A DNA stretch of 64,000 nucleotides from Escherichia coli (GTDB taxonomy: Bacteria; Pseudomonadota; Gammaproteobacteria; Enterobacterales; Enterobacteriaceae): assembly GCF_044324785.1 (NCBI RefSeq), contig NZ_CP172127.1; one strand, written 5' to 3'. Both the position numbers and the translations under genes were made by a program. Below the pieces are notes generated by a model. The model made no database searches and was not told the DNA's origin. It saw only the letters and a list, made by a program, of their open reading frames with translations. Shown piece by piece: positions 2,691 to 37,967 of the stretch. Each line of letters opens with the position of its first letter. Within the stretch, counting starts at the first letter, position 1.

Positions 2691-2763
2691 AACATTTAAG
2701 CTGATGACCACCGCGCTTTTTATTGACCATTTTGCACGCAAACTGGAAAACCTGGCGTCGTCA

Positions 2764-2774
2764 TCTATTCTTAA
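2764..2774 (+). promoter_or_regulatory. Sigma-S type extended -10 element for sdsR
   Basis: TCTATTCTTAA matches the RpoS extended -10 consensus (TCTATACTTAA) at 10 of 11 positions, placed to start transcription at about 2778. Confidence 0.5.
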
Positions 2775-2777
2775 AGG

Positions 2778-2881
2778 GCAAGGCAACTAAGCCTGCATTA
2801 ATGCCAACTTTTAGCGCACGGCTCTCTCCCAAGAGCCATTTCCCTGGACCGAATACAGGAATCGTGTTCGGTCTCTTTTTA
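2778..2881 (+). ncRNA. sdsR: sRNA SdsR (RyeB), RpoS-dependent
   Basis: Sequence GCAAGGCAACTAAGCCTGCATTAATGCCAACTTTTAGCGCACGGCTCTCTCCCAAGAGCCATTTCCCTGGACCGAATACAGGAATCGTGTTCGGTCTCTTTTT recognised as SdsR; ends in hairpin CCGAA..TTCGG plus T-run; about 104 nt. Confidence 0.7.
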
Positions 2882-3014
2882 TCTGTTAAAAGCCAGAAGC
2901 ATTCCCTTCGCTGACTTTATAGTCAACCATAACACACACTCTACTGTCTGAGTCCAGCGTTTTTTAACATTCTTGTTAAGATTATGTGATCTTTAGCGCG
3001 GGAGGAAAATATTG

Positions 3015-17059: not shown

Positions 17060-17161
17060 TACAACCTCTTCTCTTTTTATGTTCGCTTAATCGTAGCGGC
17101 AATATGCGCTGAAGCAAGCGACTCATTCTGAAAAAGCACGAATATCGACATAGTTAGGCGC

Positions 17162-17187
17162 TGTTTAACTAACGCATGCTAGTTTAA
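17162..17187 (+). promoter_or_regulatory. Candidate PhoP-box-like direct repeat upstream of mgrB
   Basis: TGTTTAA ... AGTTTAA direct repeat about 30-55 nt upstream of the mgrB start; mgrB is a known PhoPQ target, but the half-site spacing here does not match the 5-nt-spacer consensus, so this is tentative. Confidence 0.3.
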
Positions 17188-17217
17188 TGACATAAGGTAG
17201 GTGAAACGGAGATTGGA

Positions 17218-17361
17218 GTGAAAAAGTTTCGATGGGTCGTTCTGGTTGTCGTGGTGTTGGCTTGCTTGCTGCTTTGGGCGCAGGTATTCAACATGATGTG
17301 CGATCAGGATGTACAATTTTTCAGCGGAATTTGTGCCATTAACCAGTTTATCCCGTGGTGA
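17218..17361 (+). CDS. mgrB: PhoQ-inhibiting small membrane protein MgrB (47 aa, GTG start)
   Basis: Hand translation from GTG: (M)[46 protein letters not shown]; ACGGAG Shine-Dalgarno 7 nt upstream; missed by the track (below 60 aa, non-ATG). Confidence 0.85.
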
Positions 17362-17435
17362 TATCATTTTTTCAGCACTAGATTTTCTTCCTCTCCAGCA
17401 GTGGTAGAATAGCGCCTCTACTCAGAGGTGGTGAA

Positions 17436-17723
17436 ATGAACGAAGTTGTAAATTCAGGCGTGATGAACATTGCGTCTTTGGTTGTATCGGTGGTGGTTCT
17501 TCTTATCGGGCTCATCTTGTGGTTTTTTATCAATCGTGCCAGTTCACGGACTAACGAACAGATTGAACTGCTTGAGGCGTTGCTGGATCAGCAAAAACGT
17601 CAAAATGCACTGTTACGTCGTTTGTGCGAAGCAAACGAACCAGAGAAAGCAGATAAAAAGACCGTTGAGAGTCAAAAATCGGTTGAAGACGAAGATATTA
17701 TTCGTCTGGTCGCCGAACGATAA
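17436..17723 (+). CDS. yebO: Small membrane protein YebO
   Basis: 95-aa ORF MNEVVNSGVMNIASLVVSVVVLLIGLILWFFINRASSRTNEQIELLEALLDQQKRQNALLRRL... Confidence 0.8.
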   Translation: MNEVVNSGVMNIASLVVSVVVLLIGLILWFFINRASSRTNEQIELLEALLDQQKRQNALLRRLCEANEPEKADKKTVESQKSVEDEDIIRLVAER

Positions 17724-18392
17724 TCCTTCCTCAATCTTGAGTAACCCCGTCGTTGAAGGGTTACTCAATTCATCCTGATTATACGCACTGCCATGGTGCA
17801 ACTGCTTCAAATTAAAACTCTGGTCTGACTTCAAATAATTATCATATTATTTATTTGCGTAACGGGATATCAGAAAAAGATATTTAGCCCATTAATTTAT
17901 TAGGATGTTTACATCGGATTTGTGATTAAGTGTGGTATTATTTATTAGCGAAACGTTTCTCTCTTGATTTTTTTGCGCATTCATCAATTTTTCTTATTTT
18001 AAATTTACAATACCTTTGGCGATTGACTTCTCTTTGGGGTGATTGATAGCCGTTAACTGACTGTTTTATGAGAAAAAGTGATATAACTTTTTATTCATTG
18101 CATAGCAGAAAATGTGATATTGCACGCACTATGTAATAACTTCTCCCATTGGCCTGGAACAACTGAACTTATTGAACTATGTTAGAAAATACGTCAGTTT
18201 AAGTATCTGCCTGAACTGGCAAGGTTAAGCACAATGATATATCGGCGCGTATTCCGTTGCATAAGTGTGCAAAAAAAGTGGAAGACGTATCGAGATTTGT
18301 GCGTCTGATCGAGACATGTTTAAAAATGGCTTGCCATAATTAACGTTGTATGTGATAACAGATTTCGGGTTAAACGAGGTACAGTTCTGTTT

Positions 18393-18536
18393 ATGTGTGG
18401 CATTTTCAGTAAAGAAGTCCTGAGTAAACACGTTGACGTTGAATACCGCTTCTCTGCCGAGCCTTATATTGGTGCCTCATGCAGTAATGTGTCAGTTTTA
18501 TCTATGTTATGCCTGCGGGCGAAGAAAACAATCTAA
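18393..18536 (+). CDS. yobF: Small protein YobF (47 aa), co-transcribed with cspC
   Basis: Hand translation [47 protein letters not shown]; stop 12 nt before the cspC start. Confidence 0.8.
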
Positions 18537-18548
18537 GGAATTTTTCAA

Positions 18549-18758
18549 ATGGCAAAGATTAAAGGTCAGGTTAAGTGGTTCAACGAGTCTAAAGGTTTTG
18601 GCTTCATTACTCCGGCTGATGGCAGCAAAGACGTGTTCGTACACTTCTCTGCTATCCAGGGTAATGGTTTCAAAACTCTGGCTGAAGGTCAGAACGTTGA
18701 GTTCGAAATTCAGGACGGTCAGAAAGGTCCGGCAGCTGTTAACGTAACAGCTATCTGA
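18549..18758 (+). CDS. cspC: Cold-shock-family protein CspC
   Basis: 69-aa [72 protein letters not shown] with RNP1/RNP2 motifs. Confidence 0.95.
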
Positions 18759-18803
18759 TCGAATCCACTGATCTGAAGTGTGAATACGCTTCAATCTCGC
18801 TAT

Positions 18804-18830
18804 AAAGCCTCGTCGAATGCGAGGCTTTTT
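18804..18830 (+). terminator. Intrinsic terminator after cspC
   Basis: aaagcctcg-tcgaatg-cgaggctttttt hairpin plus T-run. Confidence 0.8.
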
Positions 18831-18923
18831 ACTTTGCTTTCTCTTCGCTCCAGTCGTTCGGATATTTGCCCGCCGCGTGATTCGCGTTACACTTGCGGCC
18901 TTTAGTATCCTGCCGGAGTTGTC

Positions 18924-24101: not shown

Positions 24102-24398
24102 TTTAACTTTCGATTAGCAGAAATTTCGAAAGGTAAAATATCCTTGTCACATTCGTTTGCAAAGGAAGGTAAATCTTTGCCAAATCAGAGGCGTCTCTGA
24201 TATGTTTAACTCCCGTTTAACAACCATGGAGTATAGGGCAGTAGCCCGCAGTATGGATCGTCACCGACGTCATTTCAGCATCAGGCCTTTTAACGCCTGC
24301 CTTTCTGGCACTCTATGCCGCACCTTTCGTTTGCATTTTGTCGTTACGCCTGCATTATTTCTGGCGTCGAATAGCTATTCCTTAAGCAGGAGCTTGTC

Positions 24399-25955
24399 AT
24401 GGAATTCTTAATGGACCCCTCAATTTGGGCGGGGCTACTCACGCTTGTTGTTCTCGAAATTGTGCTGGGTATCGATAACCTGGTCTTCATCGCCATTCTT
24501 GCTGACAAACTGCCGCCAAAACAACGCGATAAAGCGCGTTTGCTGGGATTATCACTGGCGCTGATTATGCGTCTGGGGCTGCTGTCGCTGATTTCATGGA
24601 TGGTCACGCTGACCAAACCGCTATTTACCGTCATGGATTTCTCCTTCTCCGGACGTGACCTGATTATGTTGTTCGGGGGAATATTCTTGCTGTTCAAAGC
24701 AACAACCGAACTGCATGAACGGCTGGAAAACCGCGATCATGATTCCGGTCACGGTAAAGGCTACGCCAGTTTCTGGGTGGTCGTCACACAGATCGTCATC
24801 CTTGACGCCGTCTTCTCGTTGGATGCGGTAATTACGGCAGTAGGGATGGTTAACCATCTGCCAGTGATGATGGCGGCGGTAGTGATTGCGATGGCGGTTA
24901 TGCTGCTGGCATCGAAACCGCTGACGCGATTTGTTAACCAGCATCCAACGGTGGTGGTGCTCTGTCTGAGCTTCCTGTTAATGATTGGTCTGAGTCTGGT
25001 GGCAGAAGGTTTCGGTTTCCACATTCCGAAAGGTTACCTGTATGCCGCGATTGGCTTCTCGATCATCATCGAAGTGTTTAACCAGATTGCGCGTCGCAAC
25101 TTTATTCGTCACCAGTCGACTTTGCCGCTGCGAGCGCGTACTGCCGATGCCATCCTGCGTTTGATGGGCGGGAAACGTCAGGCCAATGTTCAGCACGATG
25201 CCGATAACCCGATGCCGATGCCGATCCCGGAAGGTGCATTTGCCGAAGAAGAACGTTACATGATTAACGGCGTACTCACGCTGGCGTCGCGTTCTCTGCG
25301 CGGGATCATGACGCCGCGCGGTGAAATAAGCTGGGTTGACGCTAATCTCGGGGTCGATGAAATCCGCGAGCAGCTGCTCTCCTCACCGCACAGCCTGTTC
25401 CCGGTATGTCGCGGTGAACTGGATGAAATCATCGGAATCGTACGTGCTAAAGAACTGCTGGTGGCGCTGGAAGAGGGCGTTGATGTGGCGGCGATTGCTT
25501 CGGCGTCTCCGGCGATTATCGTCCCTGAAACCCTCGATCCGATCAACCTGCTGGGCGTGCTGCGTCGTGCTCGCGGGAGCTTTGTTATCGTGACCAACGA
25601 GTTTGGTGTGGTACAAGGCTTGGTCACGCCGCTGGATGTGCTGGAAGCCATTGCGGGTGAATTCCCGGACGCTGACGAAACGCCGGAAATCATTACTGAT
25701 GGTGACGGCTGGCTGGTAAAAGGCGGTACAGATTTGCATGCCTTGCAGCAGGCGCTTGATGTTGAGCACCTTGCCGATGACGATGATATCGCGACGGTCG
25801 CGGGCCTCGTGATCTCGGCAAATGGTCACATTCCCCGTGTGGGCGATGTGATTGATGTAGGTCCACTGCATATCACCATCATTGAAGCCAATGATTATCG
25901 TGTTGATCTGGTTCGCATTGTTAAAGAGCAACCGGCGCACGATGAAGATGAGTAA
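24399..25955 (+). CDS. yoaE: TerC-family membrane protein with CBS/CorC C-terminal domains, YoaE
   Basis: 518-aa ORF: N-terminal polytopic TerC-like half, C-terminal soluble CBS-pair and transporter-associated region. Confidence 0.9.
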
Positions 25956-36236: not shown

Positions 36237-37922
36237 TTGAAGAAGGTTTGGCTTAACCGTTATCCCGCGGACGTTCCGACGGAGATCAACCCTGACCGTT
36301 ATCAATCTCTGGTAGATATGTTTGAGCAGTCGGTCGCGCGCTACGCCGATCAACCCGCGTTTGTGAATATGGGGGAGGTGATGACCTTCCGCAAACTGGA
36401 AGAACGCAGTCGCGCGTTTGCCGCTTATTTGCAACAAGGGTTGGGACTGAAGAAAGGCGATCGCGTTGCGTTGATGATGCCTAATTTATTGCAATATCCG
36501 GTGGCGCTGTTTGGCATTTTGCGTGCCGGGATGATTGTCGTAAACGTTAACCCGTTGTATACCCCGCGTGAACTTGAGCATCAGCTTAACGATAGCGGCG
36601 CATCGGCGATTGTTATCGTGTCTAACTTTGCCCACACTCTGGAAAAAGTGGTTGATAAAACCGCCGTTCAGCACGTAATTCTGACCCGTATGGGCGATCA
36701 GCTATCTACGGCAAAAGGCACGGTAGTCAATTTCGTTGTTAAATACATCAAGCGTCTGGTGCCGAAATACCATCTGCCAGATGCCATTTCATTTCGTAGC
36801 GCCCTGCACAACGGCTACCGGATGCAGTACGTCAAACCCGAACTGGTGCCGGAAGATTTAGCTTTCCTGCAATACACCGGCGGTACCACTGGTGTGGCGA
36901 AAGGCGCGATGCTGACTCACCGCAATATGCTGGCGAACCTGGAACAGGTTAACGCGACCTATGGTCCGCTGTTGCATCCGGGCAAAGAGCTGGTGGTGAC
37001 GGCGCTGCCGCTGTATCACATTTTTGCACTGACCATTAACTGCCTGCTGTTTATCGAACTGGGTGGGCAGAACCTGCTTATCACTAATCCGCGCGATATT
37101 CCAGGGTTGGTAAAAGAGTTAGCGAAATATCCGTTTACCGCTATCACTGGCGTTAACACCTTGTTCAATGCGTTGCTGAACAATAAAGAGTTCCAGCAGC
37201 TGGATTTCTCCAGTCTGCATCTTTCCGCAGGCGGAGGGATGCCTGTTCAGCAAGTGGTGGCAGAACGTTGGGTGAAACTGACTGGACAGTATCTGCTGGA
37301 AGGTTATGGCCTGACCGAGTGTGCGCCGCTGGTCAGCGTTAACCCGTATGATATTGATTATCATAGTGGTAGCATCGGTTTGCCGGTGCCATCGACGGAA
37401 GCCAAACTGGTGGATGACGACGACAACGAAGTACCACCGGGTCAACCGGGTGAGCTTTGTGTCAAAGGACCGCAGGTGATGCTGGGTTACTGGCAGCGTC
37501 CGGATGCTACCGATGAAATCATCAAAAATGGCTGGTTACACACCGGCGACATCGCGGTGATGGATGAAGAAGGATTCCTGCGCATTGTCGATCGTAAAAA
37601 AGACATGATTCTGGTTTCCGGTTTTAACGTCTATCCCAACGAGATTGAAGATGTCGTCATGCAGCATCCTGGCGTACAGGAAGTCGCGGCTGTTGGCGTA
37701 CCTTCCGGCTCCAGTGGTGAAGCGGTGAAAATCTTCGTAGTGAAAAAAGATCCATCGCTTACCGAAGAGTCACTGGTGACTTTTTGCCGCCGTCAGCTCA
37801 CGGGCTACAAAGTACCGAAGCTGGTGGAGTTTCGTGATGAGTTACCGAAATCTAACGTCGGAAAAATTTTGCGACGAGAATTACGTGACGAAGCGCGCGG
37901 CAAAGTGGACAATAAAGCCTGA
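36237..37922 (+). CDS. fadD: Long-chain fatty acid-CoA ligase FadD (TTG start)
   Basis: Track ORF 36171..37922 trimmed to TTG-initiated (M)[25 protein letters not shown]... (561 aa); AMP-binding motif [11 protein letters not shown] present. Confidence 0.9.
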
Positions 37923-37940
37923 GCGTTAAGTCAGTCGTCA

Positions 37941-37967
37941 GACGCCGGTTAATCCGGCGTTTTTTTT
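37941..37967 (+). terminator. Intrinsic terminator after fadD
   Basis: acgccgg-ttaat-ccggcgt hairpin followed by TTTTTTT. Confidence 0.85.

What the first reader, a model, noticed from the sequence alone, without database searches (positions are those of the whole stretch)
17162..17361. mgrB: GTG-initiated 47-aa PhoQ regulator invisible to the ORF track, with an antisense ORF in its place
The only track ORF here is 17179..17367 on the minus strand (62 aa), but the plus strand encodes the 47-aa MgrB from a GTG start with a well-placed Shine-Dalgarno. Upstream there is a GTTTAA direct repeat reminiscent of PhoP half-sites, although the spacing is not canonical.
Basis: partly seen in the sequence, partly recalled or inferred. 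Interest (0 to 1): 0.4.

Follow-up and report, generated by a model that had tools for sequence, protein, structure and literature searches.

The report
E. coli mgrB gene and promoter

Summary
Window 17218..17361 (+) is mgrB (b1826). Its DNA is identical to E. coli K-12 from the promoter to past the stop codon. It is annotated in about 5,420 of 5,426 complete E. coli genomes and matches the MgrB equivalog model over its full length. The GTG start and the GGAG 6 nt upstream are real. Both are conserved in about 19 genera: GTG 80/81, TTG 1, ATG 0.

The minus-strand 62-aa ORF is a by-product of mgrB codon usage. It is broken by stops in 49/81 orthologs, shows no coding signature and has no Shine-Dalgarno. 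It appeared "in place of" mgrB only because of an ORF-length cut-off.

The GTTTAA repeat exists at 17163-68 and 17182-87 but is not a PhoP half-site pair. The real PhoP box is TAGTTA-GGCGC-TGTTTA at 17151-17167, with the canonical 5-nt spacer, at -41..-25 from the published TSS (17192). It begins 11 nt before the finding's start coordinate. The second GTTTAA overlaps the -10 hexamer TAGTTT (17180-85) and is Escherichia-specific.

This is already known and ordinary. The one mildly new point is that the GTG start is almost invariant across the family while neighbouring synonymous purine sites are saturated.

The parts
17118..17136 (-). Distal conserved block, homologous to the second (reverse-orientation) PhoP box footprinted in the Salmonella yobG/mgrB promoter. 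On the minus strand it reads CTTTTTCAGAATGAGTCGC. It abuts the -35 (TTGCTT, plus-strand 17112-17117) of the divergent yobH promoter.
   Evidence: Zwir 2012 (PMC3335776) Table 1 gives the distal box GTTTTTAGGAATGATTCAC. The Salmonella locus L081 carries its reverse complement at the aligned position, and the block ATGATTCCTAAAA is conserved across genera. PhoP binding in E. coli is inferred, not shown. The E. coli copy is more degenerate.
17151..17167 (+). Proximal PhoP box TAGTTA-GGCGC-TGTTTA: direct repeat, 5-nt spacer, at -41..-25 from the TSS, taking the place of a -35 element.
   Evidence: It matches the KGTTTA-N5-KGTTTA consensus with 2 mismatches. xAGTTA-N5-[GT]GTTTA is conserved at a fixed distance in 78/81 orthologous promoters. 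GTTA and GTTTA are invariant in the 19-genus alignment. It aligns with the DNase-footprinted Salmonella box ACAGTTACTCCTGGTTTAA.
17163..17168 (+). It lies inside the 3' half-site of the PhoP box.
17177..17185 (+). Extended -10 promoter element TGcTAGTTT: TG at 17177-78 and hexamer TAGTTT at 17180-85, which is -12..-7. It starts 12 nt after the PhoP box.
   Evidence: TG, and the T, A and T of the hexamer, are invariant or nearly so across 19 genera. The 12-nt box-to-hexamer distance equals the Salmonella architecture I/II spacing, and the Salmonella -10 is TAATTT. Its position fits the mapped TSS.
17182..17187 (+). It overlaps the -10 hexamer (-10..-5) and is not a conserved PhoP half-site.
   Evidence: GTTT is present here in only 2 of 78 orthologous promoters, E. 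coli and Escherichia sp. E1V33. The G-T-T columns are variable.
17192..17192 (+). Transcription start site (A). The 5'UTR is 26 nt, 17192-17217.
   Evidence: Kim et al. 2012 PLoS Genet (PMC3415461), supplement file 2: mgrB TSS with 46 reads, 5'UTR 26 nt, upstream string ending ...TAGTTTAATGACA. The A is nearly invariant across genera.
17208..17211 (+). Shine-Dalgarno GGAG, 6 nt before the start codon.
   Evidence: GGAG with a 6-nt spacer is present in 75/81 orthologs. Positions -10..-7 are G/G/A/G in 75-80 of 81.
17218..17361 (+). mgrB coding sequence: GTG start at 17218-20, 47 codons, TGA stop at 17359-61. Product: [47 protein letters not shown].
   Evidence: Identical to K-12 b1826. NCBIfam NF007635 equivalog scores 89.9 bits over 1-47/47, and Pfam PF13998 scores 66.3 bits. 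The exact sequence is UniProt MGRB_ECOLI and is seen on at least 1000 contigs. A Ribo-RET initiation peak at the annotated start is published.
17179..17367 (-). Spurious 62-aa antisense ORF, in codon register with mgrB. It is not a gene.
   Evidence: No family hit. Stops in this frame in 49/81 orthologs. Probability 0.31 of being open from codon usage alone. Synonymous:nonsynonymous 311:1024, against 986:349 for the sense frame. No SD within range of its ATG.

Best explanation
This is the mgrB locus of E. coli, working as already described for K-12.

When PhoQ is activated (low Mg2+, cationic peptides, acid pH), phosphorylated PhoP binds the direct-repeat box TAGTTA-N5-TGTTTA (17151-17167). 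The box sits where a -35 element would be. PhoP recruits RNA polymerase to the extended -10 TGcTAGTTT (17177-17185). Transcription starts at A17192. The 26-nt unstructured leader carries GGAG 6 nt before a GTG start (17218).

The 47-aa product inserts in the inner membrane (N-in, C-out, TM about W6-F24). It binds PhoQ through its TM helix (W20) and its periplasmic tail (C28, D31, F34, G37, C39, W47) and inhibits PhoQ. This closes a negative feedback loop on the PhoQ/PhoP system.

Shown here: gene identity, start codon, SD, promoter geometry, and their conservation. Taken from the literature: TSS, Ribo-RET initiation, PhoQ inhibition, important residues. Inferred: PhoP contacts exactly at 17151-17167 in E. 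coli, by homology to the footprinted Salmonella box and by conservation.

The minus-strand ORF is a non-coding by-product. The second GTTTAA is the -10 hexamer.
For: - DNA is identical to K-12 MG1655 across 17060-17440 except one base at 17129. K-12 annotates b1826 mgrB 'PhoQ kinase inhibitor' at the same 144 bases.
- The 1.1-kb region is present in 5424/5426 complete E. coli genomes with mgrB annotated. The 256-nt promoter+CDS unit is intact in 5419.
- Family models: NF007635 at 89.9 bits (cut-off 40), full length; PF13998 at 66.3 bits (cut-off 27).
- Synteny kdgR-yobH-mgrB-yebO.
- 80 orthologous loci: GTG 80/81, TTG 1, ATG 0; GGAG at a 6-nt spacing in 75/81; PhoP box, 12 nt, TGnTAnnnT in 78/81. 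Invariant columns coincide with the box, -10, TSS, SD and GTG.
- Published E. coli TSS with a 26-nt UTR.
- Salmonella S1 mapping and DNase footprint of the homologous box, and -10 TAATTT.
- IS insertions at -21, -23, -29 and -46 are described as lying between the PhoP site and the start codon. That fits a box ending at -51.
- Function and residues: Lippa & Goulian 2009; Yadavalli et al.. All listed residues are present in the window's protein.
- Ribo-RET peak at the annotated start in low Mg2+.
- Klebsiella GTG>GTA in the initial codon gives non-functional MgrB.
- Coding signature: entropy by codon position 0.53/0.23/1.07, and 986 synonymous against 349 nonsynonymous differences.
Against: - On sequence alone the PhoP box is not remarkable. 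It has 2 mismatches to the consensus, and the window has 36 matches of that quality against about 17 expected.
- The primary E. coli promoter papers (Kato 1999, Minagawa 2003) could not be read. The E. coli box boundaries therefore rest on homology, conservation and TSS geometry, not on an E. coli footprint that I saw.
- No intrinsic terminator was found between mgrB and yebO, so the 3' end of the transcript is undefined.
Confidence: 0.97

Rival explanations
1. The two GTTTAA copies (17163-68 and 17182-87) are a non-canonical PhoP site with 19-bp periodicity. PhoP also binds the downstream copy, for instance to repress at high PhoP-P by occluding the -10.
For: AGTTTA at 17181-86 is a good single half-site by sequence. 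Such a close GTTTAA pair is uncommon in the window: 2 found, 0.2 expected.
Against: The downstream copy lies at -10..-5 of the mapped TSS, inside the -10 hexamer. It is absent from 76 of 78 orthologous promoters, whose -10 is TAACCT, TAATTT or TATCCT. It has no partner hexamer 11 bp upstream (TAACGC at 17170-75). The upstream copy already has a canonical partner at 17151-56. A single A-to-G change from the Salmonella/Citrobacter TAATTT creates the repeat.
Confidence: 0.04
2. The minus-strand 62-aa ORF (17179..17367) is a real, possibly Escherichia-specific, protein-coding gene that overlaps mgrB.
For: It is an intact ATG-initiated ORF. A few older automated annotations list it as a hypothetical protein, for example E. 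coli 536 ECP_1769 and HMP drafts; the exact sequence is on 12 contigs.
Against: It is in codon register with mgrB, so its stops correspond to the rare sense codons TTA, CTA and TCA. The chance that it is open over the CDS is 0.31 from codon usage alone. It is interrupted in 49/81 orthologs, including the nearest Escherichia species, where the longest antisense ORF is 31 aa. Substitutions are 311 synonymous against 1024 nonsynonymous in its frame. It has no family match and no SD within 19 nt of the ATG. Current RefSeq annotation omits it.
Confidence: 0.01
3. The annotated GTG is not the true start, and translation begins at another codon. Candidates are an upstream extension, as in the 58-62-aa database entries, or the internal ATG at 17232 in another frame.
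For: Many database entries for MgrB are 58-62 aa.
Against: An in-frame TGA at 17188-90 leaves no start codon upstream of 17218. The long E. coli entries are C-terminal stop-loss or frameshift alleles. The long Klebsiella and Lelliottia entries read the GTG as Val. The equivalog model aligns 1-47 to 1-47. GGAG sits 6 nt upstream in 75/81 orthologs. A Ribo-RET peak at the annotated start is published. GTG>GTA inactivates the Klebsiella gene.
Confidence: 0.01

Closest known systems
E. coli K-12 mgrB (yobG, b1826), PhoQ kinase inhibitor
   Same: The DNA is identical for promoter, 5'UTR, CDS and downstream region. Neighbours are the same. The protein is the same, UniProt MGRB_ECOLI.
   Different: Nothing within the functional unit. 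There is one base difference at window 17129 (T against C in K-12), in the spacer of the putative distal box, about 90 nt upstream of the start.
Salmonella enterica yobG/mgrB promoter (Zwir et al. 2012, 'architecture II')
   Same: The proximal direct PhoP box lies 12 nt upstream of a weak -10 (TAATTT against TAGTTT). There is a conserved distal reverse block, a single PhoP-dependent TSS, and a 26-nt leader.
   Different: The first half-site is TAGTTA in E. coli and CAGTTA in Salmonella. E. coli has one extra base between the -10 and the TSS. The E. coli distal block is more degenerate. Only the Escherichia -10 happens to spell GTTTAA.
yoaL-yoaE (mgpA) PhoP-activated promoter in the same window (24203-24244)
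   Same: The layout is the same: PhoP box, 12 nt, -10, 6 nt, TSS. PhoP binding is published for the identical Shigella sequence.
   Different: Its box is near-consensus (1 mismatch), its leader is 155 nt long and holds the small ORF yoaL, and it drives a CorC/CNNM-type cation transporter, not a feedback peptide.
SafA (B1500/YneN), the other small membrane regulator of PhoQ in E. coli
   Same: It is a small single-pass inner-membrane protein that acts directly on PhoQ (established knowledge).
   Different: SafA activates PhoQ, belongs to the EvgS/EvgA regulon, and is restricted to E. coli and Shigella. It has no sequence relationship to MgrB.

Membership tests
MgrB (Pfam PF13998; NCBIfam NF007635 equivalog) | Profile match above the curated cut-off over the full length | tested here: met
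   NF007635 scores 89.9 bits (cut-off 40), residues 1-47 against model 1-47. PF13998 scores 66.3 bits (cut-off 27).
MgrB (Pfam PF13998; NCBIfam NF007635 equivalog) | About 47 aa with N-terminal KK, one TM helix containing W20, and a periplasmic tail with C28, D31, F34, G37, C39 and W47 | tested here: met
   All these residues are present in the translation. The residue list comes from Yadavalli et al.. They are invariant or nearly so in alignment A3.
MgrB (Pfam PF13998; NCBIfam NF007635 equivalog) | Conserved genomic context (kdgR/yobH upstream, yebO downstream) | tested here: met
   yebO also follows mgrB in two distant orthologs.
MgrB (Pfam PF13998; NCBIfam NF007635 equivalog) | Binds and inhibits PhoQ (negative feedback) | not testable with these tools
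   Shown experimentally for the identical K-12 protein by Lippa & Goulian 2009.
PhoP-activated promoter with a PhoP box (Kato 1999 consensus; Zwir 2012 architectures I/II) | Two (T/G)GTTTA-like hexamers as a direct repeat separated by 5 nt | tested here: met
   TAGTTA-GGCGC-TGTTTA at 17151-17167, conserved in 78/81 orthologs.
PhoP-activated promoter with a PhoP box (Kato 1999 consensus; Zwir 2012 architectures I/II) | Box ends 12 nt upstream of the -10 hexamer and overlaps the -35 position relative to a mapped TSS | tested here: met
   The box ends at 17167, the -10 starts at 17180, and the TSS is at 17192, so the box is at -41..-25.
PhoP-activated promoter with a PhoP box (Kato 1999 consensus; Zwir 2012 architectures I/II) | PhoP-P physically protects the box; transcription depends on phoP and low Mg2+ | not testable with these tools
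   Footprint and S1 mapping are published for the Salmonella homolog. PmgrB is the standard PhoP reporter in E. coli. PhoP EMSA on the E. coli mgrB promoter is used as a positive control.
   13 nt lie between the hexamers, a 19-bp period.
   The first copy is conserved. The second is present in 2 of 78 and is variable.
Protein-coding gene (antisense 62-aa ORF) | ORF kept open in relatives, excess of synonymous change, ribosome-binding site | tested here: not met
   Stops in 49/81 orthologs. 311 synonymous against 1024 nonsynonymous differences. No SD.

The most novel reading that the evidence does not exclude
The non-ATG start is itself a selected feature of mgrB. GTG is kept in 82 of 83 orthologs examined (one TTG, no ATG), spanning about 19 named genera plus two distant relatives. 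Synonymous A/G sites a few codons away are fully randomised, and no conserved RNA structure explains the constraint. The reading is that a deliberately sub-optimal start codon, paired with a strong and precisely spaced GGAG, sets the amount of MgrB made per transcript. That would set the gain of the PhoQ/PhoP negative feedback, and an ATG allele would over-repress PhoQ. I found no discussion of this in the searchable literature.
Probability: 0.35. Interest if true: 0.3.

Novelty: already known. Interest (0 to 1): 0.1.

Why it matters
mgrB is medically relevant. Its loss causes colistin resistance in Klebsiella and trimethoprim tolerance in E. coli, and it is the textbook example of a small protein that ORF-length filters miss. 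Nothing here is new biology.

The practical value is for the scan:
- A 60-aa ORF cut-off replaces a real 47-aa gene with its in-register antisense shadow. Some older genome annotations made the same error.
- A motif repeat seen by eye near a promoter can be half regulator site and half core promoter.

The near-invariant GTG start is a small testable point about how feedback strength is set.

Tried and rejected
- Conserved RNA structure in the leader and initiation region. The single-sequence fold is no better than shuffles (z = -0.17). RNAalifold on 19 genera predicts 0 pairs. Rejected as an explanation for the GTG constraint.
- Intrinsic terminator after mgrB. None was found between 17361 and yebO.
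- The primary E. coli promoter papers (Kato 1999; Minagawa 2003) are not held in the library. I used Kim 2012 TSS data and the Zwir 2012 Salmonella footprints instead.
- Solved structures: none for MgrB by sequence.
- Defence-system models: no hit for either ORF.
- N-terminally longer MgrB forms. Database entries of 58-64 aa are stop-loss or frameshift alleles, or over-extended calls that read the GTG as Val.
- Profile search to reach far relatives. The listed hits were all Enterobacteriaceae. The exhaustive search shows a small family: 31 representatives at 50% identity.
- P0183, a 235-aa protein with five weak MgrB-like stretches, looks like a low-complexity repeat and was not pursued.
- The near-consensus PhoP box at 24203 looked like a possible new regulon member but is already published.

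Full report
**What is in the sequence.** The mechanical ORF list shows a 62-aa ATG ORF on the minus strand (17179..17367). With the length threshold lowered to 20 aa, it also shows a 47-aa GTG ORF on the plus strand (17218..17361) encoding [47 protein letters not shown]. An in-frame TGA at 17188-90 precedes it with no start codon in between, and GGAG lies at 17208-11, 6 nt before the GTG. GTTTAA occurs at 17163-68 and 17182-87. The 'invisibility' of the plus-strand ORF comes from an ORF-length cut-off.

**Identity.**
- The 47-aa product matches the NCBIfam equivalog for MgrB end to end (NF007635, 89.9 bits, cut-off 40) and Pfam PF13998 (66.3 bits). The 62-aa antisense product matches nothing.
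- The 1.1-kb region is found in 5424 of 5426 complete E. coli genomes, with mgrB annotated between yobH and yebO.
- In K-12 MG1655 the same 144 bases are b1826, 'PhoQ kinase inhibitor'.
- The window is identical to K-12 from 17060 to 17440 apart from one base at 17129.
- Strain N3 is colinear with the whole first 50 kb of the window.
- The exact protein is UniProt MGRB_ECOLI, seen on at least 1000 contigs.
- The 256-nt promoter+CDS unit is intact in 5419 of 5426 genomes.

**Start codon and SD.** I fetched 80 orthologous loci from named species of about 19 genera.
- The start codon is GTG in 80 of 81 sequences including the window, TTG in one (Kluyvera cryocrescens), and never ATG.
- GGAG lies 6 nt upstream in 75 of 81.
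- Two more distant relatives recovered through an exhaustive protein search (57% identity) also start at GTG.
- Published evidence agrees. There is a Ribo-RET initiation peak at the annotated E. coli start under low Mg2+ (PMC11429745). E. coli cloning primers begin GTGAAAAAG. A GTG>GTA change in the initial codon gives non-functional MgrB in colistin-resistant Klebsiella (PMC9334626).

**Promoter.**
- Kim et al. 2012 (PMC3415461, supplement 2) map the E. coli mgrB TSS with a 26-nt 5'UTR and give the upstream string ...CATAGTTAGGCGCTGTTTAACTAACGCATGCTAGTTTAATGACA. This places +1 at window 17192.
- Zwir et al. 2012 (PMC3335776) mapped and footprinted the Salmonella homolog (yobG). It has a direct PhoP box ACAGTTACTCCTGGTTTAA positioned as in promoters where the box lies 12 nt upstream of the -10. 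The -10 is TAATTT, and there is a second, reverse box GTTTTTAGGAATGATTCAC further upstream.
- In the 81 promoters, the pattern xAGTTA-N5-(G/T)GTTTA, 12 nt, TAnnnT recurs at a fixed distance from the start codon in 78.
- In a 19-genus alignment the invariant or nearly invariant columns are exactly GTTA (17153-56), GTTTA (17163-67), TG (17177-78), the T, A and T of the -10 (17180, 17181, 17185), the TSS A (17192), GGAG (17208-11) and GTG.
- The E. coli promoter is thus: PhoP box TAGTTA-GGCGC-TGTTTA at 17151-17167 (-41..-25), extended -10 TGcTAGTTT at 17177-85, and +1 at 17192.
- IS insertions at -21, -23, -29 and -46 from the start codon, which the authors describe as lying between the PhoP site and the start codon (PMC8483737), fit a box ending at -51.

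**The GTTTAA repeat.** The upstream copy is the 3' half-site of the real box. Its partner TAGTTA lies 11 bp upstream, just outside the finding's start coordinate. The downstream copy spans -10..-5 and overlaps the -10 hexamer. It is found only in Escherichia (2 of 78 promoters). Elsewhere the hexamer is TAACCT, TAATTT or TATCCT, and one A-to-G change from TAATTT produces it. It has no partner hexamer at the canonical spacing. On sequence alone the true box is unremarkable: 2 mismatches, with 36 such matches in the window against about 17 expected. Its assignment rests on conservation, TSS geometry and homology to a footprinted site. I did not see an E. coli footprint.

**The antisense ORF.**
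- It is in codon register with mgrB, so its stop codons correspond to sense TTA, CTA and TCA. With 5 Leu and 1 Ser and the window's own codon usage, the chance that it stays open over the CDS is 0.31.
- It is interrupted in 49 of 81 orthologs.
- Variation is concentrated at sense third positions (entropy 0.53/0.23/1.07).
- Single-base codon differences are 986 synonymous to 349 nonsynonymous in the mgrB frame, but 311 to 1024 in the antisense frame.
- Its ATG has no SD within range.
- A few older automated annotations did call it a hypothetical protein, for example E. coli 536 ECP_1769. Current RefSeq does not.

**Mechanism.** For the identical K-12 protein, published work shows the following. 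It is a 47-aa inner-membrane peptide whose deletion strongly raises PhoP-regulated transcription and whose over-expression lowers it. It interacts with PhoQ. Salmonella and Yersinia homologs act the same way (PMC2789325). W20 in the TM helix, the two N-terminal lysines, and C28, D31, F34, G37, C39 and W47 are functionally important, and all are present here. The locus is therefore the negative-feedback arm of PhoQ/PhoP.

**A small point that may be new.** Synonymous purine sites in conserved Lys and Gln codons of the same genes are near 50:50 A/G (K3 38:40, Q22 43:35, Q33 39:39), so divergence is saturated. Even so, the first base of the start codon is never A. No conserved RNA structure covers the initiation region. 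This suggests selection for GTG itself, plausibly to set MgrB dosage. I found no discussion of it in the searchable literature. There is no genome-wide baseline, so this remains an inference.

**Verdict.** This is a correctly identified, thoroughly known gene.

Noticed in passing
window 24203-24244 (+), upstream of yoaL (24253-24411) and yoaE (24399-25955): This is the best PhoP-box match in the window (TGTTTA-ACTCC-CGTTTA, 1 mismatch). It is followed by 12 nt, -10 TATAGG (24232-37) and the published yoaE TSS (5'UTR 155 nt, so window 24244), the same layout as mgrB. yoaE encodes a CorC/CNNM-type cation transporter (MgpA in Salmonella). PhoP binding to the identical Shigella sequence is already published (PMC5775216).
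   Followed up: yes
window 17083-17136, yobH-mgrB divergent intergenic region: A distal block is conserved across genera (...TGAAGCAAGCGACTCATTCTGAAAAA...). It contains both the homolog of the Salmonella second, reverse PhoP box and the -35 (TTGCTT) of the divergent yobH promoter (-10 TACGAT, published TSS at window 17083, only 2 reads). Its conservation could reflect the yobH promoter, PhoP binding, or both. Whether yobH is PhoP-regulated is unknown to me. The single difference from K-12 (17129) lies in this block.
   Followed up: partly
window 17402-17417: yebO has its own extended -10 promoter (TGgTAGAAT, 17402-10). Its published TSS has a 19-nt leader, placing it at window 17417. The leader folds into a CCTCT/AGAGG hairpin that overlaps the yebO SD. 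No terminator was seen between mgrB and yebO.
   Followed up: partly
database entries P0001, P0004, P0007, P0035, P0051, P0053, P0055, P0056 (E. coli); P0023, P0026, P0091-P0095 (Klebsiella, Lelliottia): Many 'MgrB' entries of 58-81 aa are one of two things: natural stop-loss or frameshift alleles in E. coli (probable loss of function), or over-extended N-termini in which the GTG start is read as Val. Gene callers regularly mis-start this gene.
   Followed up: partly
NZ_CM132967.1 (E. coli strain 744), hit H37: Only the last 49 nt of the 256-nt mgrB unit remain, next to kdgR. This is an apparent natural deletion that removes yobH, the mgrB promoter and most of the CDS. Seven of 5,426 complete genomes lack an intact unit.
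   Followed up: no
annotation of mgrB in recent RefSeq records: The newest PGAP name is 'PhoP/PhoQ regulatory lipoprotein MgrB'. However, C16 is replaced by Gly in Superficieibacter and relatives (…LGLLIW…), and Lippa & Goulian localise the protein as a transmembrane inner-membrane peptide. The 'lipoprotein' label looks questionable.
   Followed up: no
window 2740-2884; 18373-18833; 37881-37966: Rfam gathering-score hits: the overlapping sRNA pair SraC/RyeA (-) and SdsR/RyeB (+); the cspA-thermoregulator model over yobF-cspC (called cspE in strain N3); and sroD at the 3' end of fadD.
   Followed up: no
L084 1487-1563 and L085 1585-1642 (distant mgrB orthologs from Logan assemblies, organisms unknown): Both keep the same promoter grammar. 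L084 has GAGTTA-GCGAA-TGTTTA, 12 nt, then TATACT. L085 has GGTTTA, 12 nt, then TGaTAGCAT. Both have a GTG start and yebO immediately downstream. L084 lacks yobH and kdgR upstream.
   Followed up: partly
P0183 (235 aa, metagenomic): A protein with five tandem stretches that weakly resemble the MgrB periplasmic motif (…FAIDRFIPYTISGKTCDRS…). It is probably a low-complexity coincidence.
   Followed up: no
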